DNA of 64,000 nucleotides from a phage: the sequence record PZ049338.1. One strand, written 5' to 3'. The notes beneath the pieces were generated by a model, which made no database searches, was not told where the DNA came from, and saw nothing but the letters and a program-made list of their open reading frames with translations. This document shows, piece after piece, positions 26,031-50,344 of the stretch. Position 1 is the stretch's first letter, and each line of letters begins with the position of its first letter. Made by a program: the position numbers and the translations under genes.

Positions 26031-26503
26031 TTTCGTTCCTGTAATAGTTTACGGAGCCTATCAAACTCAGCAAGCATCCAACCATATTGAGGTTGGTTAA
26101 TTACTGTAGCATTATTAGGTTGTCCATAATAATAGTAATGCTCAAATGGCAATGTAGATTCAGAAAGCAAGATGCGGATATCCCGATGCTGTCTCAGTTT
26201 ACAACGAATAGCTGCAAGGATAACTTCCTGATGCTCAAGCTCCATATTACCTCTGGTGTCAATACGGAACTCTTTAACAGTTTTACCAATACGTTTGGAG
26301 CCATGACCAGATGCCAGTCTGAATTCATCAAACTGACAACCAGTTAAGTAGTAATGCCAGAAGCCTTCCATTGAACGGAATGAACCATATCCATCAACAA
26401 TGAAGTCTCTGTCGTACAAGTTAGAAAGCATTCTACCAAGTTCAGTGTGACCTCTTGAGTAGATATTGATGTGCTCAACACCATCCAATGTGGGGTTTAT
26501 CAA
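26027..26503 (-). CDS. NADAR-domain (YbiA-like) protein
   Basis: INIYSRG...LSNLY...FIVDGYGSFRSMEGFWHYY fits recalled NADAR pattern. Confidence 0.6.
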   Translation of the reverse strand: MINPTLDGVEHINIYSRGHTELGRMLSNLYDRDFIVDGYGSFRSMEGFWHYYLTGCQFDEFRLASGHGSKRIGKTVKEFRIDTRGNMELEHQEVILAAIRCKLRQHRDIRILLSESTLPFEHYYYYGQPNNATVINQPQYGWMLAEFDRLRKLLQERK

Positions 26504-26748
26504 AACGGAATATCCTCTTCTAACTGTCTACGAACCTCAGCCTCTGACATTTCAACACAGACAGGGCAATACCACTGATTGTTGAGAACCGTTCCCCAGC
26601 CGCTTGCTACGGCCCCTGTTGTGGTTCGTATGCCACATGGACAAGGGACTAAGCCCTCGTCGTCAAGAATAAGTTTAGATTTAGTTTTAGCCACCAAATA
26701 ACTCCTTCGCCTGCTGTTTAAACTTCGCAACTTCTTCCGGGTTGTCAC
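26500..26748 (-). CDS. small Zn-ribbon protein (82 aa, GTG start)
   Basis: CPC...CPVC cysteine pairs; start codon lies inside a TACTACTGTGAC-like motif. Confidence 0.4.
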   Translation of the reverse strand: MTTRKKLRSLNSRRRSYLVAKTKSKLILDDEGLVPCPCGIRTTTGAVASGWGTVLNNQWYCPVCVEMSEAEVRRQLEEDIPF

Positions 26749-28858: not shown

Positions 28859-29956
28859 TTATTCAATTGGATTTCCTTCTGCATCACATTCGCGGACGTA
28901 GAGTCCGACAGGGAACTGTGGTAAGCCATCGTTAGTGAGGGCTTGGTATTTGTAGGTAATCCATTTACCAAGGAGTTTAACTTGGCTATCATATTTCCGA
29001 AAATCATGTCCACCACGCATTTTACACTTGAAGTAATTCTTAGTACCCTTCATCTGGCAGACGAGTACACCCTCTTCATTAAGGTCTTTCTCAACGTGTG
29101 TTACGAATGCCTCAGCATCCTGCATTAACTTCCACTTCTGTAAGTTATGAGAGCGATGATTGAACTCGTAAAGACCATTCACATTACGAAGCATCATACC
29201 TTCATATCCATCATTAATGAATCTGTTCAGTAGAATCTGAGCAGAGATTTCATTATTGACTAAGATGTTAGGTACAACCTTGATGAACTGAGTTCTTACT
29301 TTAGTAACATCAGCAAGCATGTCATGTCGTGTTTCCCAAGTCACATCTGACACTGGAATATCAAACACATGGAACTCAAGTCGTGATGTATCTTTGTTAG
29401 GCTTCTTAGCCGCACTGACGATGTTTTGAAGAGGTAGTCCGTGGATGTACAACTCACCATCCAGCTTAGTGAATCCTGTCCGTTCAGATACGTCAATGAT
29501 TTCTTTCTTTAAATGCTCATGGCAGTCATATGTCTTACCGCCTCGGCTATGGAGGATAACCCCTTCATGAGTGATCTCAGCAATGCATCGAAGCCCGTCA
29601 AGCTTAGGAGAAACGTAGCAAGGCCAACTAATACGATGTCCCACTTTTGTATAATCGTGGGCCAACATGGGGAGGATTTCTCCGACACCCATCGCTTCCT
29701 CAACAGTGGGTCGGTAGCATTTATCGATTTGTTTGTTGTATTTTGATTCAGCTTCCAACAGAGCTTGTTCTTGTGCTGTCGTTTCATTTGCACGTCCTAC
29801 ATTCTTAGGCTTAGCAACAGTCTCCTTGATTTGCATCTTACCACCAAGACGACCATGTGTGACAATAACAGTATCATCAGAGACTCCGACAGTCCAAATC
29901 TTAATGTTACCCTTCTTGTCCTTAGCAAACAACTCTTTACAATAAACCATTCTCAA
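28859..29956 (-). CDS. ATP-dependent DNA ligase
   Basis: adenylation motif KLDGLR; 365 aa. Confidence 0.8.
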   Translation of the reverse strand: MRMVYCKELFAKDKKGNIKIWTVGVSDDTVIVTHGRLGGKMQIKETVAKPKNVGRANETTAQEQALLEAESKYNKQIDKCYRPTVEEAMGVGEILPMLAHDYTKVGHRISWPCYVSPKLDGLRCIAEITHEGVILHSRGGKTYDCHEHLKKEIIDVSERTGFTKLDGELYIHGLPLQNIVSAAKKPNKDTSRLEFHVFDIPVSDVTWETRHDMLADVTKVRTQFIKVVPNILVNNEISAQILLNRFINDGYEGMMLRNVNGLYEFNHRSHNLQKWKLMQDAEAFVTHVEKDLNEEGVLVCQMKGTKNYFKCKMRGGHDFRKYDSQVKLLGKWITYKYQALTNDGLPQFPVGLYVRECDAEGNPIE

Positions 29957-29997: not shown

Positions 29998-30468
29998 TTA
30001 CAGGTTTTTAGTTGCACGCATAACTGCTGCAATGTTGGCGATATCTGTAGCTGACACAGAATCAAGGCCAAGTTCCTGGATAACTTTCACAACATCCTTT
30101 GGGTCAATGTCGTCAGCCTCATCCACTGCAATCGAGCCTTCCACTTGAGCATTTTCACGAGGCTCTTCAAGATTGCCTTCACGAACCAGAGTACCATCAG
30201 AAAGGTCAGTAACGTCTTCAACATCCGTGGTATCAAGTGCATCATAGTCATTCACCGTAGCTTCTTTACCCTTGAACTCAAATACATCAGAACCTGAAGC
30301 TACAAGAGCACTCTCATAGGATGCTCGGGTCGTCTCCAATGTCTGGCCGCTCGTCATCGTAATATACACTGTCGAGTTCTGTGCAAAGCTCACCGCTTCC
30401 ACTTTCTCCATGTTCACAAATACTTCCCGATTCGCATTCGCTAACGTCACTTGATAAAACTTCGCCAT
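29998..30468 (-). CDS. acidic hypothetical protein (156 aa)
   Basis: AAGGA SD upstream of ATG at 30468; overlaps exonuclease 3' end. Confidence 0.5.
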   Translation of the reverse strand: MAKFYQVTLANANREVFVNMEKVEAVSFAQNSTVYITMTSGQTLETTRASYESALVASGSDVFEFKGKEATVNDYDALDTTDVEDVTDLSDGTLVREGNLEEPRENAQVEGSIAVDEADDIDPKDVVKVIQELGLDSVSATDIANIAAVMRATKNL

Positions 30469-31285
30469 TATTTGTATCCTTACTTAGTTCATAATCTAAC
30501 CAGTCCCAGCTAAACAGGTTGTCTGCTGTTTGACCGATGTATAGTAAACGTGCTTGTTCAAGCATAACTTCTTCGTAATTCTCACCAAATACCTTTTTGT
30601 ATTCAGCGGAAACCACATCAAACATTTCCCTCACAGTAGTAAGACCATCCAACAACTTGATAGCTGTTGCCTCACCAACGCCTTTACGACGCAGTTGAAG
30701 TTTACCACCCCACATGACTTCTTTTCGAATACCACATCCGGGAATGTTATCGGTATTGTCTCCAGTCAGCATTTGCTGAAAGAAGAATAATTTAGATTCG
30801 AACTCTGGAACCCAATGTTTCAGAACTTCTGGTTGTCTATCACCACAAGCCCATCTATAATGCCAACCAAAACAAGTCCACATGTCCTTGTCACGAGTAG
30901 CAATCAGTGTATTCTCAGGGTCATTACGCTGCTCTATTGCCATCCAGTCGTCAGCCTCAATACCATCCACAATGATGTGGTTATAATATTTGACTATATG
31001 CTTCTCAACTGTTTCGTAATGGAAAGGCCTCGCTGTGTTTGGGTCACGATTACCCTTGTACTCCTGCTGAACAGCAACCTCATTTCTGAAATTACCTTTA
31101 CCAGACAATGCACAAATGTAACTGTCTCCCTTGTTAATCTTAATGACATGACGTATTAAATCATCTACAAGCTTAACAATCTCTGTCTCGGGTGCCGGTA
31201 TATACTCACCCTTAATGTAAGGATGAGCAGCTTTAATAGCACCAATCTGATACCGAAGAATGTCAGCGTCAATCAGTATACGCAT
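30314..31285 (-). CDS. 5'-3' exonuclease (FEN / T7 gene 6-like)
   Basis: YKGNRD and DxD-rich segments resemble recalled T7 gp6 (YKANRK). Confidence 0.7.
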   Translation of the reverse strand: MRILIDADILRYQIGAIKAAHPYIKGEYIPAPETEIVKLVDDLIRHVIKINKGDSYICALSGKGNFRNEVAVQQEYKGNRDPNTARPFHYETVEKHIVKYYNHIIVDGIEADDWMAIEQRNDPENTLIATRDKDMWTCFGWHYRWACGDRQPEVLKHWVPEFESKLFFFQQMLTGDNTDNIPGCGIRKEVMWGGKLQLRRKGVGEATAIKLLDGLTTVREMFDVVSAEYKKVFGENYEEVMLEQARLLYIGQTADNLFSWDWLDYELSKDTNNGEVLSSDVSECESGSICEHGESGSGELCTELDSVYYDDERPDIGDDPSIL

Positions 31286-31476: not shown

Positions 31477-32046
31477 TTAACTCTGGAAGTTTACTGATTC
31501 TCTGTCAATGTTAGCGACTAATTGACTTCGAATACGATGGAGACTGACGTAAATGTTATTTGAAGACATGCCATACTTATTGGCAACATCTTTAGTCGTG
31601 AGGTTCTTCAGGTAAACATCGGTGAACAATTCACGTTCTGATTCCTTAAGAGTCTCAAAAGCTCTCTGAACAAACGAGGAAGCTTCATCGGCTAGTAACT
31701 CACGAACAGGGTCAGTTAACCCATTATCATGGCATTCAAATTCGAGGACATTATCGTACATCTCCGTATCAACTCTGTCGAACTCTCGGCGTACATAACC
31801 ATAACGAACATTGTTCGCAATAGTACCTATAACACCGCCTAACTTATCCCACTGGATTCTGTCCCAATACTGCCAAATCCTTAGCAGAGTTTCTTGAGCC
31901 AAATCTTCAGCCAGATGGTAATCTTTTTCCATGTAGTAGAATTGTTTCTGGAGAGGTTTCCAGAACTCTTCGTACAACTCTTCAAAAGTATATGTTTCTC
32001 GTTTTGGAGTAGGGGCACTAATTCTCTTAGCCATCATACATTCCAT
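31477..32046 (-). CDS. ECF-type sigma factor (regions 2 and 4)
   Basis: DLAQETLLRIWQYWDRI (region 2-like) and LTTKDVANKYGMSSNNIYVSLHRIRSQL (region 4 HTH). Confidence 0.7.
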   Translation of the reverse strand: MECMMAKRISAPTPKRETYTFEELYEEFWKPLQKQFYYMEKDYHLAEDLAQETLLRIWQYWDRIQWDKLGGVIGTIANNVRYGYVRREFDRVDTEMYDNVLEFECHDNGLTDPVRELLADEASSFVQRAFETLKESERELFTDVYLKNLTTKDVANKYGMSSNNIYVSLHRIRSQLVANIDRESVNFQS

Positions 32047-32050
32047 GTAC

Positions 32051-32080
32051 TGATGAAAGAAAACCCCTCCGAAGAGGGGC
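32051..32080 (-). terminator. terminator-like hairpin (CCCCUC uucg GAGGGG + U-rich) immediately upstream of sigma factor gene
   Basis: read directly. Confidence 0.55.
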
Positions 32081-32275
32081 TAAGTTTCAAGCCGCACTTA
32101 AGGTAGCGAATCACCTTTACAAACAGCCTCTATCTGTTGCACACCGTTAGCATTAAGGTTCCGGGTTCTATATTATCGAGGATAAAGTATATGCTGATGG
32201 ACATATAGGCCATAGGTTATCTCCCAATTAGCCATCACCTTGGGGTAACATGCCCTTGCCGCTGTTTGAATTTAA

Positions 32276-33049
32276 TTAGAACGGGCAATCGTCGTCAAAA
32301 TCCAGACCTTCATCTGGTTTATTGGTCGGCTTATTGTTACCGTACTTCTGTTCTTCACGAGTAGTGGTATTCTTTGGCTTTTCACCATCACCACTGTCGG
32401 CAATTGGTTCTTTGCCTGCATACGGAATGTGTTGTGCATCTTTAGCTTCTGCAATCACATCACGCTGGAATTTGTAAAGCTTGGAGTATGCTTGCAGCAT
32501 CTCAGGGGTATCAATGTAAGGGTTATATGCTACCAGTTCTGAACGTGCTTCACCAACTTTGGACTTGTTTCGAGAAGAAACAGCACCAATGGAAGTCACT
32601 TTGTTACGCTTCACACCTTTCTTCGTGGTATAAGAACCAACACCGATTGAAACAACTTCATTCAGGCGTTCCATGAACCACTCGAGATTACGAGGAACTT
32701 CGGTAATAGTTGGGTCAATTGCTTTACAGAGGTCGAATACACCACCACGTTTAGCACCGGGGAAGAGGTAGAAGTCTTTGAACTGACAGGAAGGGCGAGG
32801 GTCGATAGGCTTACCGACTTTATCTTCTTCACCTTCGTATGTGCGACCAGTTGCGTCAACGTCAATAAGTTCAAAAGCAATGGTACACTTGAATGCGGGA
32901 GCTTTCGCTTCACCTTGCCAATCTGGTTGAGGCTGAACACCTAAGCCAACAAAGCGAACGATACGTGCGTCGAATACATCATCTTCAATCGCGTCGTATA
33001 CAGTGAAAGATTTTTTAGAAGTGGAAGTAGATGGAATAGCAGTAGTCAT
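32276..33049 (-). CDS. ssb: single-stranded DNA-binding protein with host-SSB-like acidic tail (…DFDDDCPF)
   Basis: C-terminus matches recalled E. coli SSB tip DFDDDIPF. Confidence 0.65.
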   Translation of the reverse strand: MTTAIPSTSTSKKSFTVYDAIEDDVFDARIVRFVGLGVQPQPDWQGEAKAPAFKCTIAFELIDVDATGRTYEGEEDKVGKPIDPRPSCQFKDFYLFPGAKRGGVFDLCKAIDPTITEVPRNLEWFMERLNEVVSIGVGSYTTKKGVKRNKVTSIGAVSSRNKSKVGEARSELVAYNPYIDTPEMLQAYSKLYKFQRDVIAEAKDAQHIPYAGKEPIADSGDGEKPKNTTTREEQKYGNNKPTNKPDEGLDFDDDCPF

Positions 33050-33144
33050 TATTTAATATCCTTATTAATTAATCTCAATGTTGAGAGAACTGTTTATATC
33101 TCTCGCTCAGTTGTATATAGATTAGTGTAAGATAACTGAAAATC

Positions 33145-36062: not shown

Positions 36063-36524
36063 TTAGTTACAATACCTTCCATTATGATTCCTTAATCGGT
36101 AATAAATTGCGGATTCAGTTCTGCCCAATCGTGCAGCTATAGTTTTAACAGGAACACCTGCTCTCCACATCTCAAAGCAATCGTCATGACTTTCTCTGTA
36201 ACGATTTACGTTTGTTTCAGTAGCATGTTCAGAGCCTTCAAGAATTTCAAGGTGTTCTGGGTTACAGCAAGCCCTGTTCCTGCATTTGTGATTAATCTCA
36301 CAACCTTCAGGGATTGAGCCGTTAAGTTCTTCCCACACTAACCTGTGGTACATCACCCAAGTATTTTTACCAATATTCTTGCGGAAGTACCCATCACTGT
36401 TAAGTTTATGAGAAACGGGGATTTTACACCCCGTATTAGTAATATCAAATACAAGTTTCTTTGGCATATTCAATGGGTATGGAACCAGCTTGCACCAAGC
36501 ATTGAGTCTGAAGCTAATGGACAT
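36063..36524 (-). CDS. HNH homing-type endonuclease
   Basis: INHKCRNRACCNPEHLEILEGSEHATETN HNH-like core; overlaps 3' end of polymerase gene. Confidence 0.65.
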   Translation of the reverse strand: MSISFRLNAWCKLVPYPLNMPKKLVFDITNTGCKIPVSHKLNSDGYFRKNIGKNTWVMYHRLVWEELNGSIPEGCEINHKCRNRACCNPEHLEILEGSEHATETNVNRYRESHDDCFEMWRAGVPVKTIAARLGRTESAIYYRLRNHNGRYCN

Positions 36525-38314
36525 TCCATATTCAACGACTCTCCAGCTTTTTTAACACACTGGTCAATCAACTCTCTTAATTTAACTACATCTTTGGTGG
36601 CGCAAGTGAACTGCATCTCATCGTGCATCATAATGACCTGATTTGCAAACAGCTTATCACGTTTAACCCAAGAAATCAGGTAGCAGTCAGCAATCTTCAT
36701 AACAATAGAACCAGCAGACTGGAGCATTGTATTCAGTGCTTTATGGGTCATCACCTCACCGGAGTTAGGGTCACGACGCATAATCAACTTACGACCATCA
36801 ATAGCTGGAACCCAACCATGTTTCGCTGCGAATGTTTGTACCCACTCCATAAGAACTGGAATACAAGGACATTCTTTCAGGAACTTATCACGAGCTTCCT
36901 GACCTTCGGCAACACCACCACCTAACTGAGCACCTAAGTTCGCATTACCAGCGCCATAGAGGAAAGCATAGATAAACGTCTTAGCCTGCTTACGAGTTGC
37001 TAGACCTGCAAGCTTCTGGTTGTGCGAGTGGATATCACCATTCAGAAGAACTTCACGATACTCTAGAGCGGAGTCGAGTGCTTTCTGATAATACTCAGCC
37101 TCTCGTGTCTTACCAGCTTCGAGAGCTTCCTCAAGCAGCATACGAGATACAGCAATGAGGTAGTGAGTAAGCATACGAAGTTCAAGACCTGCACCATCCC
37201 CACCTACGAAAGCCTGTTGGCCCTCTGGGATAAGGTATGTACAGTGTCCTACATCTTCCCACTTCTTACCATTGAACTCCTGCATGATGTTAGTCAGTGG
37301 CTTACGACGAAACTTGCCAGACTCAATCATTTTCTTGGTGAGCTTAGGAACCAGAATGCCACGACGACCCATCTCAGAGTCACAGTAGTCACCCTTAAAT
37401 AAGTGACGACATTCTTCACCCAGCAACGCACCAGCAGCAGGAATGTTAACAATTGTCTTGTGACGCATACGAGCAGTTGGTGTAGCGCATGGGTTGGCTT
37501 CACCAGACAGCTTACCATCAGCACGTACTTGAGCAATCAAACCTTCTAAGAGGGAACGACGATGCGCAAGCTGCATACGATGCTTCAAGAGCGTCAATGC
37601 CTGACTCTCATCCTCACCAACTGAATCAAAAGAATCATCAGTGATTTGTGGAGAAGTCGGCCAGAACTGTTTCAGTAGAAGTTTCTTCTTAATGGCATCG
37701 AAGTTAGGAACCTTTCTGCTCAGGTCGAAACCTAAAGCAACCAGAATTGCCTTCATGTAACCCTTCGTCTGGTCACGGAAGTGTGTATCAATAAACCCGT
37801 TAACAGCGTTGGTGAATGCAAGTCTGTCCTCAGAATCACACTGTTCATTGATGAACTTAGCGTATGAGGTTTTCTCCAAACGTTTGCGATACTGCCAAAC
37901 TTGGAAAGGTGTCTTCTTCTCGTTCCACTCAGTAGGAACCCAACCCATATCCATCATGACTTTCTTCAGTCGAGATGTTTTACCAGGGTCGAATGGTGTA
38001 TACCATACAGCGGAGAATGGCCCACTAACATCTTCAGAAGAGAGTCCATGAATGTCCATGTACTTCTGAACGAATGCTTTAGGTTGACCGTTCAACTTAA
38101 ACGGAGCTTTATACTCTGAACCCTTGTGCATCATAGGAGGAAGCAAAGGGATTAATTCGAGGTCAATCTTGAGGATACGCTCATTCAATGAGTGAACCAA
38201 CCAAGAAGCACCACGCTTATCAAAGTTACAGCCATGTTTCCACTGATTCGAAATCAAATCAGCGACTTTCTGTTCTAACAGGAATGGTTTAGTCCAATCC
38301 GGCTTGATATCCAT
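36470..38314 (-). CDS. family A DNA polymerase, polymerase domain only (614 aa)
   Basis: motif A DGAGLELR, motif B RKQAKTFIYAFLYG, motif C HDE; no 3'-5' exo motifs in this ORF. Confidence 0.85.
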   Translation of the reverse strand: MDIKPDWTKPFLLEQKVADLISNQWKHGCNFDKRGASWLVHSLNERILKIDLELIPLLPPMMHKGSEYKAPFKLNGQPKAFVQKYMDIHGLSSEDVSGPFSAVWYTPFDPGKTSRLKKVMMDMGWVPTEWNEKKTPFQVWQYRKRLEKTSYAKFINEQCDSEDRLAFTNAVNGFIDTHFRDQTKGYMKAILVALGFDLSRKVPNFDAIKKKLLLKQFWPTSPQITDDSFDSVGEDESQALTLLKHRMQLAHRRSLLEGLIAQVRADGKLSGEANPCATPTARMRHKTIVNIPAAGALLGEECRHLFKGDYCDSEMGRRGILVPKLTKKMIESGKFRRKPLTNIMQEFNGKKWEDVGHCTYLIPEGQQAFVGGDGAGLELRMLTHYLIAVSRMLLEEALEAGKTREAEYYQKALDSALEYREVLLNGDIHSHNQKLAGLATRKQAKTFIYAFLYGAGNANLGAQLGGGVAEGQEARDKFLKECPCIPVLMEWVQTFAAKHGWVPAIDGRKLIMRRDPNSGEVMTHKALNTMLQSAGSIVMKIADCYLISWVKRDKLFANQVIMMHDEMQFTCATKDVVKLRELIDQCVKKAGESLNMECPLASDSMLGASWFHTH

Positions 38315-42163: not shown

Positions 42164-42429
42164 CAGCGAGTCTCTTCTAAGTCTCGGTTAACACCCACAT
42201 TACCATCAAGGTTAGCCTGCACTTGAGCAGAAATAACAATCAGGTTCTTAGGGTAGGAGAGGGTTGTTTTACCAGAGCTAAGCACATGGATTCGAACTTT
42301 CAGAGGAGTAACATCCACAACTCGGGCTATTTCTAGCCCTTGGTTGTATTTACCATTACCCCAGACAACAATATCGTCCAGTCGAATCACCCGGTGCAGC
42401 TTATCACGGTGATTGTGTGACAGTAACAT
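42163..42429 (-). CDS. hypothetical protein (88 aa)
   Basis: ORF track. Confidence 0.45.
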   Translation of the reverse strand: MLLSHNHRDKLHRVIRLDDIVVWGNGKYNQGLEIARVVDVTPLKVRIHVLSSGKTTLSYPKNLIVISAQVQANLDGNVGVNRDLEETR

Positions 42430-42719
42430 TAATCAAGACCTCGCACTGTAGAGAGGATGAAATTACGCAGCATGTCTTCAGTCTGCATCCCTGTTTTGAA
42501 ACCTACTGGCTTCTTGTTTTCATCAAACACGATGATGGTTGGGACACCACGGATGCCAAAGGTACGAGCTTCTTCGCGTACTCCGTCGTCTTCGATGCTA
42601 CGGGATTCAAAAGTAAATCCCTCTTCTTCCAGTTCATCTTGAACTTTCTTGAAGATAGGCTCGATTGCTTTGCAAGGAGCACAGGAAGTACCAAAGTATT
42701 TAATTACAGAGTAAGCCAT
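42429..42719 (-). CDS. thioredoxin
   Basis: CxxC active site SCAPC in thioredoxin-sized (96 aa) protein. Confidence 0.75.
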   Translation of the reverse strand: MAYSVIKYFGTSCAPCKAIEPIFKKVQDELEEEGFTFESRSIEDDGVREEARTFGIRGVPTIIVFDENKKPVGFKTGMQTEDMLRNFILSTVRGLD

Positions 42720-44264: not shown

Positions 44265-44762
44265 TTATTTGTAAAAGATTCTGCTATGTGGAGGATTCAA
44301 CCAATCAAATCCAGCCAGATTGCAAAGATGCTCATACAAAGCAACGGTAACATTTACGTCCTGCTCACAGTAAGTGAACATGTCTTCAGTGAACACATCC
44401 CAAGCATTCTCTGTCTTGCCATAATCGCCTTTATAGATACCAAGCTCACGACCCCATGAATCCAGTGAATGACCACCGGGGCGGTCAGGCTGGAGCATAC
44501 GGCTGAGAACTAAGGTATCAAAGGTGTTCATGTGGAATTCAAGACCACTGAGTTTAGCCAGAGTCGGGAGGTCATAATCAATGATGTTATGGCCAACCGT
44601 TAAATCGAAGGACATTAAATCCTTCATATACTTGTCTAAATCTTGTGGTCTATAACCCTGTCGCTCTTTCGGTTGACTAGGGTCAATAATCCAGGCACAG
44701 TGAAATTTGGAGACATCAATATAGAGATTGTTAGTCTCTATATCTGTACAAGCAATCTTCAT
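44265..44762 (-). CDS. DnaQ-like 3'-5' exonuclease (stand-alone polymerase proofreading domain)
   Basis: Exo I DIET, Exo II HNIIDYD, Exo III YCEQD. Confidence 0.7.
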   Translation of the reverse strand: MKIACTDIETNNLYIDVSKFHCAWIIDPSQPKERQGYRPQDLDKYMKDLMSFDLTVGHNIIDYDLPTLAKLSGLEFHMNTFDTLVLSRMLQPDRPGGHSLDSWGRELGIYKGDYGKTENAWDVFTEDMFTYCEQDVNVTVALYEHLCNLAGFDWLNPPHSRIFYK

Positions 44763-44771
44763 TAATACACC

Positions 44772-46568
44772 TTAGAATGGTCGACTATCATCACGACTGA
44801 CTTCATCAGAGTCAGGCTCCTCTCCCGGGATAGAGAAAGGATTCTTAGGGTCATACTCATCAGCAGTACGCTGTCTCAATCGACCTGTAACTGGGTTATA
44901 GGAAGTTGGGACAATACCTGTCTGACCGAAGTTACGGTCTTTCAGGAGACGAATCTGAGACAAGTTACGAGCATCACCATCTGCCTGCTTGTTACGCTCA
45001 AAGCCCAGAATTAACTGGGAGAATCGCATAAGAGCACGCGAACCTGTGAACTGCACTTCCTGAACCTGACCACCTTCCTCGTGCGGAGCACCAGTTTTAG
45101 GTGGGTTCAAGTGACTGAATACGAAACATGTGAACTCCAGTTCGTTACACAGTCCAGCCAGTTCTACAGCAATACGAGCAACTTCGGTGTTAATCTCAGT
45201 CGCTGATAAGTGTGATACCAGTGCGGTGATGTTATCTAAGAAGATGAACTTCACACCATGCTCCACAACCCAGAAACGCATACAGCGTTTGATATCTTCC
45301 CAATCATTCTGACCAAAGTTCCGGTAAAGGAACAGATGGCCATCATACTTCAGAGCTTCACTCTTAAGCAGTTCAGGGTCGAACTCAACATCTGGGCGAT
45401 GGAAAGGTATATTAGCAGATTTACCTGCGATGTTTTTGATTGTGTTACCTACAGTCTCTTCCAACATGAAAGCGCCCACTTTCTCTTTGTGGACGTTAAT
45501 GAGGTGAGCACTAAGTTCGTGAGCAAGCAGTGTTTTACCACCACCCACACCACCACCAATTGCAATCACTTCACCATATCGGAGACCGAAGGTTAACTCT
45601 GTAAGACCTTCCCAAGGGAATGATAAACCCCACTCAGGCTTCTTCAGCGCATCTTCCAGACACTCAGCTACAGTCGTTGAGCCAGCCGGAGATTCTTTTG
45701 CAGCATTGAAGCGTAAGCAGTTATTAAGTTCGAGGTCACGACCGTCCATGAGGAGGTCATTAGCGTCCTTAATTGGAGCACCATCTTTACGGAACCCTTT
45801 AGGGATTCGGGCAATCTTAATGTTCGGATACATCGCTCGAATCTTGTTCACAGCATCATCACCAGCTTCATCGTTATCCATGCAGACAACAACTTCAGCG
45901 AATGATTCTACGAATGCACGGTCACGAGAGAACGCAGCCGCTGCTGATTTCGAGCCATCCGGTAAAGAAACACATGCTGGTTTGTATGTACTCTTAGAGT
46001 TCTCTGTCAATACCTGAAAACCAGACATTGCACTGAGTTCGTCTTCAAATACAAACAACTTACCTGTGTACACATCACCAAGACGTGCTTGGGACATACC
46101 GAAGAAACTACAACCTGATGCTGCACCTACAGCATAAAAACCTTTAGGTTCTAAGGTGCGAACTTTGTAAGCACGGATTGCTCCGTCCTTTTCCTTCGGG
46201 TAAAACTGAGAGATAGGTTCCCGGTTAGTGGATGAAAGACCAATACGAACACCAAAACGTTCGGCAACTTCTTTCTTCACACCACGAATGGTGCAGTTCT
46301 GAATAGGAAGCTCTTGGACTTCCGCTAAACGTTCTTGTACTTCTTCCTCGGTCAGTTCACGGAATTCATGACGAACTCCTTCCCACTTCTCGCGGTTACC
46401 TTCTTCAACCTGTTCGTAAAAACCATCACGACTACAGTAAACCCACTGCTCGCCGGTCTCAACATTTTCCCAATGCTGAAGATGGTTGCCAGTTCGGTCA
46501 TGGCCTGCTGCCGTACAGGTTGGACATGCAGAATCACCAAGGATTCTTTTGTTTCCATAAACTTTCAT
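44772..46568 (-). CDS. primase-helicase (Zn-finger + TOPRIM + DnaB-like helicase)
   Basis: N-terminal CPTC Zn finger, TOPRIM-like CMDNDEAGDD, Walker A GGGVGGGKT. Confidence 0.8.
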   Translation of the reverse strand: MKVYGNKRILGDSACPTCTAAGHDRTGNHLQHWENVETGEQWVYCSRDGFYEQVEEGNREKWEGVRHEFRELTEEEVQERLAEVQELPIQNCTIRGVKKEVAERFGVRIGLSSTNREPISQFYPKEKDGAIRAYKVRTLEPKGFYAVGAASGCSFFGMSQARLGDVYTGKLFVFEDELSAMSGFQVLTENSKSTYKPACVSLPDGSKSAAAAFSRDRAFVESFAEVVVCMDNDEAGDDAVNKIRAMYPNIKIARIPKGFRKDGAPIKDANDLLMDGRDLELNNCLRFNAAKESPAGSTTVAECLEDALKKPEWGLSFPWEGLTELTFGLRYGEVIAIGGGVGGGKTLLAHELSAHLINVHKEKVGAFMLEETVGNTIKNIAGKSANIPFHRPDVEFDPELLKSEALKYDGHLFLYRNFGQNDWEDIKRCMRFWVVEHGVKFIFLDNITALVSHLSATEINTEVARIAVELAGLCNELEFTCFVFSHLNPPKTGAPHEEGGQVQEVQFTGSRALMRFSQLILGFERNKQADGDARNLSQIRLLKDRNFGQTGIVPTSYNPVTGRLRQRTADEYDPKNPFSIPGEEPDSDEVSRDDSRPF

Positions 46569-48686: not shown

Positions 48687-48956
48687 TTAATCCCAGTTAG
48701 GTTGGAGGTCTTTCATTGCGAAGTCACGTACTTCACCACGTTCACGGCAAACAGCTTTTACGAACCACTGTTCACCTTCATGGTACTCAGAGATACCATA
48801 CCAAATATTGATTGGTACAATAGTGCGCTCTGCTGTTTCACCGCGCCAGTTAGTGTAGGTCACACGGTGTGGTACTTGTAGAACTAATAACTTTGGTCGT
48901 GCTGTTTCAGAAGGGACTTTCGTCGTCATAATCTTCACCGTAGACAATAGAATCAA
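48687..48956 (-). CDS. hypothetical protein (89 aa)
   Basis: ORF track. Confidence 0.45.
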   Translation of the reverse strand: MILLSTVKIMTTKVPSETARPKLLVLQVPHRVTYTNWRGETAERTIVPINIWYGISEYHEGEQWFVKAVCRERGEVRDFAMKDLQPNWD

Positions 48957-49182
48957 TGAACGCTTGATGTTTTGCCAACTTCTTTTTCATGAGTTTGTTG
49001 TGGACTTGAAGAATATTAGAGACCTCTTTGGTGACAGTCACATGAGGTACAGCAACACCTTCAGCGAATTTTAGTCGCTTAAAGGGAGCGACAAGGTAAA
49101 TGAACTTAGCAACTTCAGTGTTGTTTCGTAAATTTACCTCTTCCCCATTAGTTAACTTATAATACACCCAGAGATTCCACAA
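48907..49182 (-). CDS. hypothetical protein (91 aa)
   Basis: ORF track; overlaps both neighbours. Confidence 0.4.
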   Translation of the reverse strand: MWNLWVYYKLTNGEEVNLRNNTEVAKFIYLVAPFKRLKFAEGVAVPHVTVTKEVSNILQVHNKLMKKKLAKHQAFIDSIVYGEDYDDESPF

Positions 49183-50344
49183 TAATTACATCGTTAGTTG
49201 TAACCATGATTTCCCAGCCAGCCAGTTCGAACATACCACCGGTGAATACACCTACGTTACGAACATCATCGTTACGCATCTGAACGATGTAGATGCCGTT
49301 TTCAACCAAGCGAATTGGTTCCTGACGCGTCACAGTAGCTGTTACCTCTGCTTCGATAGCGAAGTTTTCATCTTCAGCAGCTTCTACTGCATTGTCTGTG
49401 GCAGTCTGGTTCTGAGTTACAATGTCAACCAGTTCCTGAGCGGCAGCGTTACCACGAACGATTGCTGCTTGCAATTCACTGTTGGTGTTCACTTCATTTT
49501 GCAATTCAGCCAGAGCTTCATTAATATCTTCGACAGCATAAACTTCCTGACCATTGAAGATTGCCATTACGTTGGCTGCAAAACGTTCTGCGTTAGAACC
49601 GGTCATACCCGGAGCAGTGTTAACTTCCAGTACCCACGCTTCATCACGACGAGTAATGAGGTCAACTGCACCGTAGTCCAGACCCAGAGCAGCGATTGCT
49701 TTCAGGGCTTCACGCTTAGCTTCTTCATTAGGCTCAGCCTGCTGAGTTGCATAAATCCAACCAGTGTGGTGATTTCGGATAATATCACTGTATTCTGGCA
49801 GGTCAGCGTAACCGTTCACACGCTTCTTCTGCTGAATGTTAGTGATAACACCATTCATCACATGGATGCGGTATTCACGACGCTGAGCATTAACACCCTT
49901 GGTGTAAAGCTGTGCATTAGCCAGAGTACCTTGAACACCATCACCGAAAAGCTCTTCGTTGTTGGTTGCAATCACAATGCCTTCACCAGAGTGTCCAGAA
50001 AGGCGTGTACGGCAATAAACCAGATGACCTGCATCAAGCCATGACTGAGCTTCTTCACGGTCTGTAGTGTACTCTACAGTCTTCACATCATTGCGACGGA
50101 ATACTTCGAAAGAGATACGTTTGTTGGTCGCATTACCAACGTTGTACGGGTTGTTCAGGATGCGGGCATTGCCGATGATTTCGGCAGATAGGGAGGATGA
50201 ACCGTAGTTGACAATTAAGTCACCACTGCGACCACGGAAGCGAGAGCCATCAGTCAGGAGACGAAGTGCTCCCGGCATTAAAGGCATGAGTTCGTTCAGG
50301 GTGTCAGAAGGGCCATTTGAATATACACGTAAGCGAGGTGCCAT
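49157..50344 (-). CDS. ATP-grasp ligase
   Basis: C-terminal ATP-grasp signature WVLEVNTAPGMTGS. Confidence 0.7.
   Translation of the reverse strand: MAPRLRVYSNGPSDTLNELMPLMPGALRLLTDGSRFRGRSGDLIVNYGSSSLSAEIIGNARILNNPYNVGNATNKRISFEVFRRNDVKTVEYTTDREEAQSWLDAGHLVYCRTRLSGHSGEGIVIATNNEELFGDGVQGTLANAQLYTKGVNAQRREYRIHVMNGVITNIQQKKRVNGYADLPEYSDIIRNHHTGWIYATQQAEPNEEAKREALKAIAALGLDYGAVDLITRRDEAWVLEVNTAPGMTGSNAERFAANVMAIFNGQEVYAVEDINEALAELQNEVNTNSELQAAIVRGNAAAQELVDIVTQNQTATDNAVEAAEDENFAIEAEVTATVTRQEPIRLVENGIYIVQMRNDDVRNVGVFTGGMFELAGWEIMVTTNDVIIVESLGVL

What the first reader, a model, noticed from the sequence alone, without database searches (positions are those of the whole stretch)
32276..33049. Phage SSB carrying a host-SSB-like acidic tail (DFDDDCPF)
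Seen in sequence: the C-terminus ends GLDFDDDCPF. Established knowledge: the E. coli SSB tip DFDDDIPF recruits many host replication and repair proteins. Inference: the phage SSB may hijack or compete for host SSB partners.
Basis: partly seen in the sequence, partly recalled or inferred. Interest (0 to 1): 0.4.

Follow-up and report, generated by a model that had tools for sequence, protein, structure and literature searches.

The report
Phage SSB-like protein, host-type tail
A Salmonella phage related to phiEco32 and 7-11 encodes an uncharacterised protein that is probably its single-stranded-DNA-binding protein, ending in an acidic tip almost identical to the bacterial SSB tip; this is a useful annotation and a testable lead, not a new kind of system.

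Summary
A 257-aa ORF on the minus strand (32276..33049) ends in ...GLDFDDDCPF, 7 of 8 residues identical to the E. coli SSB tip DFDDDIPF.

It is not a homologue of bacterial SSB, T7 gp2.5, N4 SSB or T5 D11. It belongs to an uncharacterised phage family (phrog_6599/phrog_862). That family is related to NCBIfam NF046043, whose name "replication initiation protein" rests only on weak BLAST hits.

The AF2 model shows OB-fold topology, and its nearest solved folds are ssDNA binders. The layout is a conserved fold, a hypervariable disordered linker and a conserved tip. The gene sits in a T7-like replication module, and no other SSB is detectable. Together these make "phage SSB" the best reading.

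87 of 90 close relatives end in PF, and their 9-residue consensus is [V/M]DFDDDIPF, the E. coli sequence. Codons differ, so selection acts on the protein.

Which partner the tip binds is open. The phage primase-helicase and two small proteins also end in acidic-PF, as T7 gp4 and gp2.5 both end in DF and dock on T7 polymerase. A phage-internal docking role is therefore at least as likely as hijacking host partners. The host-hijack idea is plausible but untested.

The parts
32276..33049 (-). Complete ORF (257 aa plus TAA stop) of the SSB-like protein; orthologue of phiEco32 gp40, 7-11/SeKF_80 CDS0055 and Privateer gp044
   Evidence: phrog_6599 E 8.6e-98
33059..33063 (-). AAGGA Shine-Dalgarno-like element, 9 nt upstream of the ATG
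   Evidence: Read directly from the sequence
32405..33007 (-). Folded domain, residues 15-215. It has an OB-like core (strands at 24-39, 52-66, 85-95, helices at 103-127, strands at 132-141 and 147-155) followed by a small helical C-terminal subdomain (159-200) and the conserved motif IPYAGKEP (208-215)
32303..32404 (-). Predicted disordered, hypervariable linker, residues 216-249. Across relatives it is rich in A, P, T, S, Q and N. The whole C-terminal region after residue 215, tip included, varies from 23 to 45 aa
   Evidence: pLDDT 47-77; conservation 0.22 and composition
32279..32302 (-). Acidic tip DFDDDCPF, residues 250-257; a bacterial SSB-Ct-type docking peptide
   Evidence: pLDDT rises to 65 in the last block
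32062..32081 (-). Intrinsic-terminator-like hairpin plus T-run, about 195 nt downstream of the stop and just before the sigma-factor gene
   Evidence: Privateer annotates a terminator directly after its orthologue
44772..46568 (-). T7 gp4-like primase-helicase ending ...SDEVSRDDSRPF; a second protein with an acidic-PF end
   Evidence: conserved in SeKF_80 (PRDDSRPF) and Privateer (DPSSKPF); phiEco32 has ADGASPW
48907..49182 (-). Small protein of phrog_24116 (unknown function), directly downstream of the ATP-grasp gene, ending ...GEDYDDESPF
   Evidence: the Privateer homologue ends ...WINDDIPF
26500..26748 (-). Small CPxC-motif protein ending ...RRQLEEDIPF. The true start is probably an internal codon, because the longest ORF overlaps the upstream gene
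   Evidence: the SeKF_80 homologue CDS0039 ends ...KKELEELPF
36470..38314 (-). Family-A DNA polymerase (polymerase domain only); candidate receptor of the tails by analogy with T7 gp5 (inferred)
   Evidence: Pfam DNA_pol_A; annotations of relatives
44265..44762 (-). Separate 3'-5' exonuclease subunit of the polymerase
   Evidence: Pfam DNA_pol_A_exo1
42429..42719 (-). Phage-encoded thioredoxin. It may be a polymerase processivity factor, as host thioredoxin is for T7 (inferred)
   Evidence: Pfam Thioredoxin E 1e-12
30314..31285 (-). 5'-3' exonuclease / flap endonuclease. It ends in an acidic tail without a terminal aromatic residue here, but in ...DYEDGTPF in SeKF_80

Best explanation
The ORF encodes the phage's replicative single-stranded-DNA-binding protein. 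It is built on a divergent OB fold that is not homologous, at the sequence level, to bacterial SSB, T7 gp2.5, N4 SSB or T5 D11. The layout matches bacterial SSB: a conserved ssDNA-binding domain (residues about 15-215), a disordered hypervariable linker (216-249) and a conserved acidic tip (DFDDDCPF).

The tip most likely works as a docking peptide: the terminal Phe and its carboxylate would sit in a hydrophobic and basic pocket, and the Asp run on a basic ridge. It probably also folds back on the protein's own DNA-binding surface when no DNA is bound. Its most likely primary partners are the phage's own T7-like replisome proteins: the family-A polymerase with its exonuclease subunit and thioredoxin, and the gp4-like primase-helicase. 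The primase-helicase and two small early proteins carry the same acidic-PF end, which points to one shared receptor, as in T7.

Because the tip is chemically the same as the host SSB-Ct, it can probably also bind host SSB-interacting proteins. That is a secondary, unproven consequence.

Shown here: the sequence, the conservation pattern, the predicted fold, the gene context and the shared tails. Inferred: ssDNA binding, the docking mechanism and the identity of the partners.
For: Sequence and tip.

Tripartite conservation: 0.67 for the fold, 0.22 for the linker and 0.69 for the tip. 87 of 90 close relatives end in PF. In the wider superfamily, 121 of 149 distant relatives have an acidic end and 116 end in an aromatic residue.

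Selection acts on the protein: the tip is kept while codons differ.

Context: the gene lies between the sigma factor and FEN on one side and Pol A on the other. A primase-helicase, exonuclease subunit, thioredoxin and ligase are nearby. The same synteny occurs in Kuravirus, Grimontviridae and Zobellviridae.

No E. coli-SSB, gp2.5 or N4-SSB homologue was found elsewhere in the window or in the complete genome of the 97%-identical phage.

Shared tails: 4 of 115 greedy gene calls end in PF against 0.16 expected (Poisson 2.7e-5, a post hoc count). The helicase tail is conserved in relatives.

T7 precedent: gp2.5 ends DEDGDF and gp4 ends SNDTDF. The gp2.5 tail anchors to a basic patch on T7 polymerase, and PDB 6P7E holds a gp4-tail peptide DTDF on gp5. 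The gp2.5 tail interacts with both polymerase and helicase-primase. In HK620, the SSB tip NDYPPF recruits a phage protein, Sak4.

Two GenBank records already label orthologues as SSB (SeKF_80 and Ptacy1532).
Against: There is no experimental datum for any member of the family.

The superfamily carries an NCBIfam name, 'phage replication initiation protein, NGO0469 family'.

Most depositors, including one who used HHpred (Privateer), left the gene as 'hypothetical protein'.

The helicase does not share the aromatic end in the more distant Pseudomonas phage O4, so the shared-receptor argument holds only for the Grimontviridae/Kuravirus clade.

The near-perfect convergence of the tip on the bacterial consensus, up to 13 identical residues in some relatives (NEPPMDFDDDIPF), is easier to explain by a host partner than by a phage partner.
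Confidence: 0.55

Rival explanations
1. The protein is the phage SSB, and the main job of its tip is to engage host SSB-interacting proteins such as Pol III chi, PriA, RecQ, RecJ, RecO, ExoI, Ung, RNase HI and Topo III. It would either recruit them to phage ssDNA or titrate them away from host SSB.
For: The tip matches the E. coli SSB-Ct at 7 of 8 residues. The family consensus of the last nine residues equals the E. coli sequence, and some relatives carry 13 identical residues, NEPPMDFDDDIPF. The invariant Pro-Phe end is the bacterial type, not the T7 type, which ends in DF. The tip converges on DDDIPF/W across phage families whose polymerases and helicases differ. The short SSB-Ct motif (DDDIPF) is highly conserved and engages partners such as DnaG primase and chi (abstracts of PMC5872125 and PMC3632105).
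Against: The phage encodes a full T7-like replisome and needs few host replication proteins. phiEco32 infects E. coli yet carries the less host-like tip YEDDNDSPF, so exact mimicry is not required. The primase-helicase and small phage proteins carry similar tails, which suggests a phage-encoded receptor. From prior knowledge, not checked here (Kong and Richardson 1998, named): the E. coli SSB tail can replace the gp2.5 tail in T7, so a host-like tip does not imply a host partner. No binding data exist.
Confidence: 0.3
2. The protein is not an SSB. It is a replication initiation or primosome-type protein, as the NCBIfam name of the related NGO0469 family says, or some other DNA-binding factor that happens to have an acidic tail.
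For: 77 of 78 distant relatives match NF046043, 'phage replication initiation protein, NGO0469 family', with best E 2.8e-39. The window protein matches it weakly (29.9 bits, E 3.7e-7).
Against: The name goes back to weak BLAST similarities in a 2007 annotation table: 26% over 109 aa to a nanovirus Rep and 32% over 87 aa to a phage primase. The same paper guesses 'probably encodes the primase', and no experiment is reported. The model shows an OB fold with no nucleotidyl-transferase, HUH or primase features. No Pfam domain is found. The fold-linker-acidic-aromatic-tip layout is the hallmark of SSBs. The phage already has a primase-helicase.
Confidence: 0.08
3. The protein is an SSB, but the tip has no external partner. 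It acts only in cis or between SSB monomers, as an ssDNA mimic that occupies the DNA-binding cleft. This would tune affinity, cooperativity and ssDNA-versus-dsDNA discrimination.
For: This behaviour is documented for the T7 gp2.5 and Enc34 ORF6 tails. AF2 confidence rises again at the tip (pLDDT 65, against 47-49 for the linker), which would fit a docked tip.
Against: An acidic run alone would be enough to mimic DNA, so the invariant Pro-Phe end and the hydrophobic residue at position -3 are not explained. The same end on the helicase and the small proteins argues for a shared external receptor. In every studied system, cis-binding coexists with partner binding.
Confidence: 0.1

Closest known systems
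E. coli / Salmonella SSB (Pfam PF00436 family)
   Same: Three-part layout: an OB domain, a disordered low-complexity linker and an acidic tip. The tip is DFDDDCPF here against DFDDDIPF in E. coli, and the family consensus equals MDFDDDIPF.
   Different: There is no sequence or profile similarity in the DNA-binding domain. The folded part is about 200 aa instead of about 115. Structural matches to SSB OB domains are only marginal (Foldseek E 0.03-0.15). The DNA encoding the tail shows no sign of recent capture from the host ssb gene.
Phage T7 gp2.5 (and DUF2815 / Enc34 ORF6), with T7 gp4
   Same: A phage-specific OB-fold SSB with an acidic tail ending in Phe. It works in a replisome made of a gp4-type primase-helicase, a family-A polymerase, thioredoxin, FEN and ligase. 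Helicase and SSB share the same type of C-terminal end.
   Different: No profile similarity (hhalign probability 1%). gp2.5 is not among the top fold hits. The tip is of the bacterial type (hydrophobic-Pro-Phe), not Asp-Phe. Thioredoxin is encoded by the phage, and the polymerase and its 3'-5' exonuclease are separate genes.
PrgE of plasmid pCF10 (PDB 8S4S/8S4T)
   Different: Identity is 13-15%. PrgE is half the size and binds dsDNA as well as ssDNA in filaments. No shared tail was shown.
NCBIfam NF046043, 'phage replication initiation protein, NGO0469 family' (with phrog_862)
   Same: A true sequence-level relative of the superfamily: 77 of 78 distant relatives match it. All 78 also match phrog_862 and phrog_6599. 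hhalign between the close set (A1) and the distant set (A2) gives probability 100%.
   Different: The window protein scores 29.9 bits against a cut-off of 75, so it is outside the curated family. The family's functional name has no experimental basis.
N4 SSB / DUF669 and T5 D11 (other orphan phage SSB families)
   Same: Phage SSBs of about 250-265 aa with divergent or undetectable OB folds, placed in replication modules.
   Different: No profile similarity. The N4 SSB family ends in ...SLFGKK, with no acidic or aromatic tip. Only 1 of 78 distant relatives touches DUF669, weakly.
Phage HK620 SSB (tip NDYPPF) and its partner Sak4
   Same: A phage SSB whose host-like ...PF tip recruits a phage-encoded partner to SSB-coated ssDNA.
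   Different: HK620 SSB is a canonical bacterial-type SSB homologue. No Sak4-like recombinase was seen in this window.

Membership tests
Bacterial-type SSB (PF00436) | OB domain homologous to the SSB family profile | tested here: not met
   No Pfam hit at E <= 0.1. phmmer and tblastn with E. coli SSB match only the linker and tail (E 0.03).
Bacterial-type SSB (PF00436) | Disordered linker followed by an acidic tip ending in D-D-D-[IL]-P-F | tested here: met
   pLDDT below 50 to 77 over residues 216-250. Tip is DFDDDCPF against DFDDDIPF. Conservation pattern.
Bacterial-type SSB (PF00436) | Homotetramer; the tip binds SSB-interacting proteins | not testable with these tools
   Needs biochemistry.
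T7 gp2.5-like SSB (incl. DUF2815) | Sequence or profile similarity to gp2.5 / DUF2815 | tested here: not met
   hhalign probability 1.0%; no DUF2815 Pfam hit.
T7 gp2.5-like SSB (incl. DUF2815) | gp2.5-type variant of the OB fold | tested here: inconclusive
T7 gp2.5-like SSB (incl. DUF2815) | Acidic C-terminal tail with a terminal aromatic residue, in a gp4/gp5-type replisome | tested here: met
N4 SSB / DUF669 | Profile similarity to N4 gp45 or DUF669 | tested here: not met
   hhalign probability 0.1-1%. 1 of 78 distant relatives hits DUF669 at E 3.5e-4.
T5 D11 SSB (phrog_1607) | Sequence or profile similarity | tested here: not met
   BLASTP E 0.76; hhalign probability 0.9%; the two proteins fall in different PHROGs.
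NCBIfam NF046043 (NGO0469 family) | Score at or above the curated cut-off of 75 bits | tested here: not met
   29.9 bits, E 3.7e-7, covering residues 19-67 only. Homology to the family through intermediates is real.
phrog_6599 | Full-length match to the family profile | tested here: met
   E 8.6e-98, residues 3-257 on profile positions 2-245 of 245. The family is annotated 'unknown function'.
Functional class: ssDNA-binding protein | Preferential, sequence-independent binding to ssDNA | not testable with these tools
   Only inferred, from fold, layout, context and the lack of another SSB.

The most novel reading that the evidence does not exclude
The phage runs a network of SSB-tip mimics. The SSB-like protein, the primase-helicase, two small early proteins (phrog_24116 and a CPxC protein) and, in 7-11-like relatives, the flap endonuclease all end in acidic-Pro-Phe. 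They would plug into the SSB-Ct pockets of host proteins. This would re-route the host SSB interactome to phage DNA. The small proteins would act as dedicated decoys that block host repair, restart or nuclease factors from reaching host SSB.
Probability: 0.12. Interest if true: 0.7.

Novelty: new member of a known kind. Interest (0 to 1): 0.35.

Why it matters
It gives a function to a widespread gene that is almost always deposited as 'hypothetical protein' (phiEco32 gp40, 7-11, Privateer gp044, Pseudomonas phage O4 gp40). It also flags that the NCBIfam name of the related family, 'replication initiation protein', probably has no basis.

It adds a further sequence family to the known phage SSB classes, one that pairs a non-bacterial OB domain with a bacterial-type tip.

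It offers a small, tractable system for asking whether such tips serve the phage replisome, the host interactome or both: one conserved 8-residue peptide, a T7-like replisome, and several phage proteins with the same end.

Phage SSBs are also triggers of defence systems such as retron-Eco8, Hna, AbpAB and DARNA. Knowing which gene is the SSB in Kuravirus and Grimontviridae phages is therefore useful for work on phage escape from defence and for phage therapy.

Tried and rejected
1. Homology to T7 gp2.5, N4 SSB as a single sequence and as a 55-sequence profile, T5 D11 and the E. coli SSB OB domain: none detectable.

2. Sequence searches of the PDB with the protein and with two profiles gave nothing meaningful.

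3. Recent capture of the tail from the host ssb gene: the tail-coding DNA of the window, SeKF_80, Privateer and phiEco32 matches the E. coli ssb 3' end at only 18-29 of 45 nt, with synonymous differences. Capture is rejected. The similarity is kept at the protein level.

4. LUZ24-like Pseudomonas phages have the closest primase-helicase outside the clade. PhiCHU has no member of this family and instead carries a protein annotated as gp2.5-like.

5. I tried to test whether the tip tracks the host SSB tip across bacterial phyla. The last protein search returned 33 unnamed metagenomic proteins. All named hosts are gamma-proteobacteria that, from general knowledge not checked here, share the same SSB tip, so the test could not be done.

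6. The small acidic-PF protein downstream of the ATP-grasp gene occupies the position that gp79, the RNAP inhibitor, holds in phiEco32. gp79 ends ...GVTYL, and no resemblance between the two proteins was noticed (no formal comparison was run).

7. The DNA polymerase looked split in the PKM.Hi.22.6 annotation. In the window it is one intact 614-aa ORF followed by an HNH gene.

8. Rfam found nothing in the window.

9. A literature search for an SSB in Kuravirus phages found nothing.

10. No peptide-docking prediction was attempted.

Full report
OBSERVATION. The coordinates are exact, but the gene is on the minus strand. ORF 32276..33049 (-) encodes 257 aa, from ATG at 33049 to TAA at 32278-32276, and ends ...NKPDEGLDFDDDCPF. 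An AAGGA Shine-Dalgarno-like element lies 9 nt upstream. I fetched E. coli K-12 ssb; the protein ends ...SNEPPMDFDDDIPF. The last eight residues therefore match 7 of 8, and both tips sit at the true C-terminus. Only five of 671 stop-to-stop ORFs of at least 40 aa in the window end in P[FWY].

WHERE THE WINDOW COMES FROM. The window is about 97% identical over 24 kb to Salmonella phage PKM.Hi.22.6 (Grimontviridae). It is more distantly related to Salmonella phage 7-11/SeKF_80 and to E. coli phage phiEco32. The orthologues are phiEco32 gp40, SeKF_80 CDS0055 and Privateer gp044. 139 phage records carry a homologue. Nearly all label it 'hypothetical protein'; two (SeKF_80 and Ptacy1532) call it an SSB.

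WHAT THE PROTEIN IS. It has no Pfam domain. It is a full-length member of phrog_6599, annotated 'unknown function' (E 8.6e-98), and has a weaker match to phrog_862.

- A search of 5.8 billion proteins gave 95 relatives. An exhaustive profile search of 1.84 billion representatives gave 211.
- The distant set (alignment A2) is truly homologous to the close set (alignment A1): hhalign probability 100%, E 3.5e-44.
- 77 of 78 distant relatives match NCBIfam NF046043, 'phage replication initiation protein, NGO0469 family', with best E 2.8e-39. The window protein itself scores only 29.9 bits against a cut-off of 75.
- That family name goes back to a 2007 annotation table. NGO0469 was labelled from weak BLAST hits, 26% over 109 aa to a nanovirus Rep and 32% over 87 aa to a phage primase. 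No experiment was reported. I do not regard the name as evidence of function.

STRUCTURE. AlphaFold2 with a 74-sequence alignment gave a confident model (mean pLDDT 85.8, pTM 0.76).

- The order of secondary-structure elements is long strands at 24-39, 52-66 and 85-95, helices at 103-127, then strands at 132-141 and 147-155. This is the classic OB-fold order. A small helical subdomain follows, up to about residue 200.
- Residues 216-250 are predicted to be disordered (pLDDT 47-77). Confidence rises slightly again at the tip, to 65.
- Foldseek gives PrgE (E 8.5e-4), then PriB, SsbB, SsbA and RPA.
- In the viral structure library, 50 proteins match at E <= 1e-3, almost all uncharacterised.
- These scores are modest. 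They support 'OB fold of the ssDNA-binding kind' and nothing more specific.

NOT A MEMBER OF THE CHARACTERISED SSB FAMILIES. Profile comparisons with T7 gp2.5 (probability 1%), with N4 SSB alone and as a 55-sequence profile (0.1-1%) and with T5 D11 (0.9%, BLASTP E 0.76) are all negative. E. coli SSB matches only the linker and tail. Profile searches against PDB sequences found nothing.

LAYOUT AND SELECTION. In the alignment of 74 relatives, the mean frequency of the commonest residue is 0.67 in the fold, 0.22 in the linker and 0.69 in the last eight residues.

- The C-terminal region after residue 215 varies from 23 to 45 residues including the tip, and the linker is rich in A, P, T, S, Q and N.
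- 87 of 90 near-full-length close relatives end in Pro-Phe. Position by position, the consensus of the last nine residues is [V/M]-D-F-D-D-D-I-P-F, which is the E. coli sequence MDFDDDIPF.
- Some metagenomic relatives carry 13 residues identical to E. coli SSB, NEPPMDFDDDIPF.
- Cys at position -3, as in the window, recurs in 5 of the 87.
- At the DNA level the tail-coding region matches E. coli ssb at only 18-29 of 45 positions, and the differences are synonymous. The tip is therefore maintained by selection on the protein. It was not recently copied from a host gene.
- In the wider superfamily, 121 of 149 distant relatives have at least three acidic residues in the last ten. 116 of 149 end in an aromatic residue (39 PF, 43 PW/PY, 34 other), and 8 more have P[FWY] one or two residues from the end.
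- The N4 SSB family has neither feature.
- A conserved fold, a variable disordered linker and a conserved acidic-aromatic tip are what the literature describes as typical of bacterial and phage SSBs.

CONTEXT. The gene lies in a minus-strand block. Pfam and PHROG hits in that block define a T7-like replisome:

- gp4-type primase-helicase, 44772..46568
- family-A polymerase, 36470..38314, with a separate 3'-5' exonuclease subunit, 44265..44762
- phage thioredoxin, 42429..42719
- flap endonuclease, 30314..31285
- ATP-dependent ligase, 28859..29956
- the phiEco32-type sigma factor, 31477..32046, right next to the ORF

. The same neighbourhood is seen in Kuravirus, in Grimontviridae and, for a distant family member ending ...GDDDIPW, in Pseudomonas phage O4 of the Zobellviridae. 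No homologue of E. coli SSB, gp2.5 or N4 SSB is detectable anywhere else in the window or in the complete PKM.Hi.22.6 genome. A phage with its own polymerase and helicase would be expected to have an SSB, and this is the only candidate.

WHAT THE TIP DOES. Scanning all ORF ends showed that the SSB-like protein is not alone.

- The primase-helicase ends ...SDEVSRDDSRPF.
- A small phrog_24116 protein (48907..49182) ends ...GEDYDDESPF.
- A small CPxC protein (26500..26748) ends ...RRQLEEDIPF.
- In a greedy set of 115 gene calls, four end in PF against 0.16 expected (Poisson 2.7e-5). This count is post hoc, and one of the four is a doubtful 48-aa ORF without acidic residues.
- The ends are conserved in relatives. 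SeKF_80 has helicase ...PRDDSRPF, flap endonuclease ...DYEDGTPF and small protein ...KKELEELPF. Privateer has helicase ...DPSSKPF and the phrog_24116 homologue ...WINDDIPF. phiEco32 has helicase ...ADGASPW beside SSB-like ...DDNDSPF.

This is the T7 pattern. gp2.5 ends ...DEDGDF and gp4 ends ...SNDTDF. The gp2.5 tail anchors to a basic patch on the T7 polymerase, and a gp4-tail peptide is seen on gp5 in PDB 6P7E. The gp2.5 tail mediates contacts with both polymerase and helicase-primase, and deleting F232 abolishes the polymerase interaction. In HK620, a host-like tip (NDYPPF) recruits a phage protein, Sak4. From prior knowledge, not checked here (Kong and Richardson 1998, cited): the E. coli SSB tail can functionally replace the gp2.5 tail.

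My best explanation is therefore that the tip is the docking peptide of a phage-internal hub, most likely the polymerase-thioredoxin complex. It probably also binds back to the protein's own DNA-binding surface.

There are counter-arguments. The helicase of phage O4 lacks the aromatic end. The strong convergence of the tip on the exact bacterial consensus is more naturally explained by conserved host pockets. The two ideas are not exclusive. A tip of this sequence very probably can bind host SSB partners, whether or not that is what it is selected for.

VERDICT. 'Phage SSB' is well supported but only by inference (I put it at about 0.8). The tip as a protein-docking module is likely. The claim that it hijacks host partners is plausible, untested and not the favoured reading. 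In kind this is ordinary: a phage SSB with an acidic interaction tail. In detail it is a new, uncharacterised sequence family that combines a non-bacterial OB domain with a bacterial-type tip, in a phage where several replication proteins share that end. I rate interest at 0.35.

Noticed in passing
window 44772-46568 (-), 48907-49182 (-), 26500-26748 (-): Three further minus-strand proteins end in acidic-Pro-Phe: the primase-helicase (SRDDSRPF), a phrog_24116 small protein (DYDDESPF) and a CPxC small protein (EEDIPF). The ends are conserved in SeKF_80 and Privateer. In SeKF_80 the flap endonuclease also ends DYEDGTPF. This suggests one shared receptor pocket.
   Followed up: partly
window 32405-32428 (-), residues 208-215: A nearly invariant short motif, (H/N)IP(Y/F)AGKEP (P209, A211, G212 and E214 conserved), sits at the border between the fold and the disordered linker. 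Its role is unknown. It could be a second short linear interaction motif.
   Followed up: no
window 36063-36524 (-) and 36470-38314 (-): An HNH endonuclease gene (Pfam HNH_3 plus HTH) overlaps the 3' end of the intact family-A polymerase gene. In the 97%-identical phage PKM.Hi.22.6 the polymerase is annotated in two pieces, so this locus differs between close relatives. That may reflect homing-endonuclease activity.
   Followed up: partly
window 32047-32275 (-): A spacer of about 230 nt lies between the SSB-like gene and the sigma-factor gene. It ends in a strong terminator-like hairpin (32062-32081) immediately before the sigma-factor start. The hairpin should therefore end transcripts from the SSB-like gene just before the sigma gene, which would need its own start or read-through.
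   Followed up: no
window 42429-42719 (-): The phage encodes its own thioredoxin within the replication block. T7 borrows the host thioredoxin as a polymerase processivity factor, so this phage may bring its own.
   Followed up: no
NCBIfam NF046043 (relatives P0113-P0240, alignment A2): The curated name 'phage replication initiation protein, NGO0469 family' appears to rest only on weak BLAST hits from a 2007 annotation table. The family's members look like OB-fold SSB-like proteins with acidic-aromatic tails, so the name is probably wrong.
   Followed up: partly
window 49157-50344 (-) and neighbours: An ATP-grasp / amidoligase gene, annotated 'D-alanine--D-alanine ligase' in PKM.Hi.22.6, belongs to the conserved phiEco32-type cluster of ATP-grasp, COOH-NH2 ligase, glutamine amidotransferase and gamma-glutamyl cyclotransferase genes. 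The cluster is also present in Privateer, O4 and PhiCHU. Its function in these phages is unknown.
   Followed up: no
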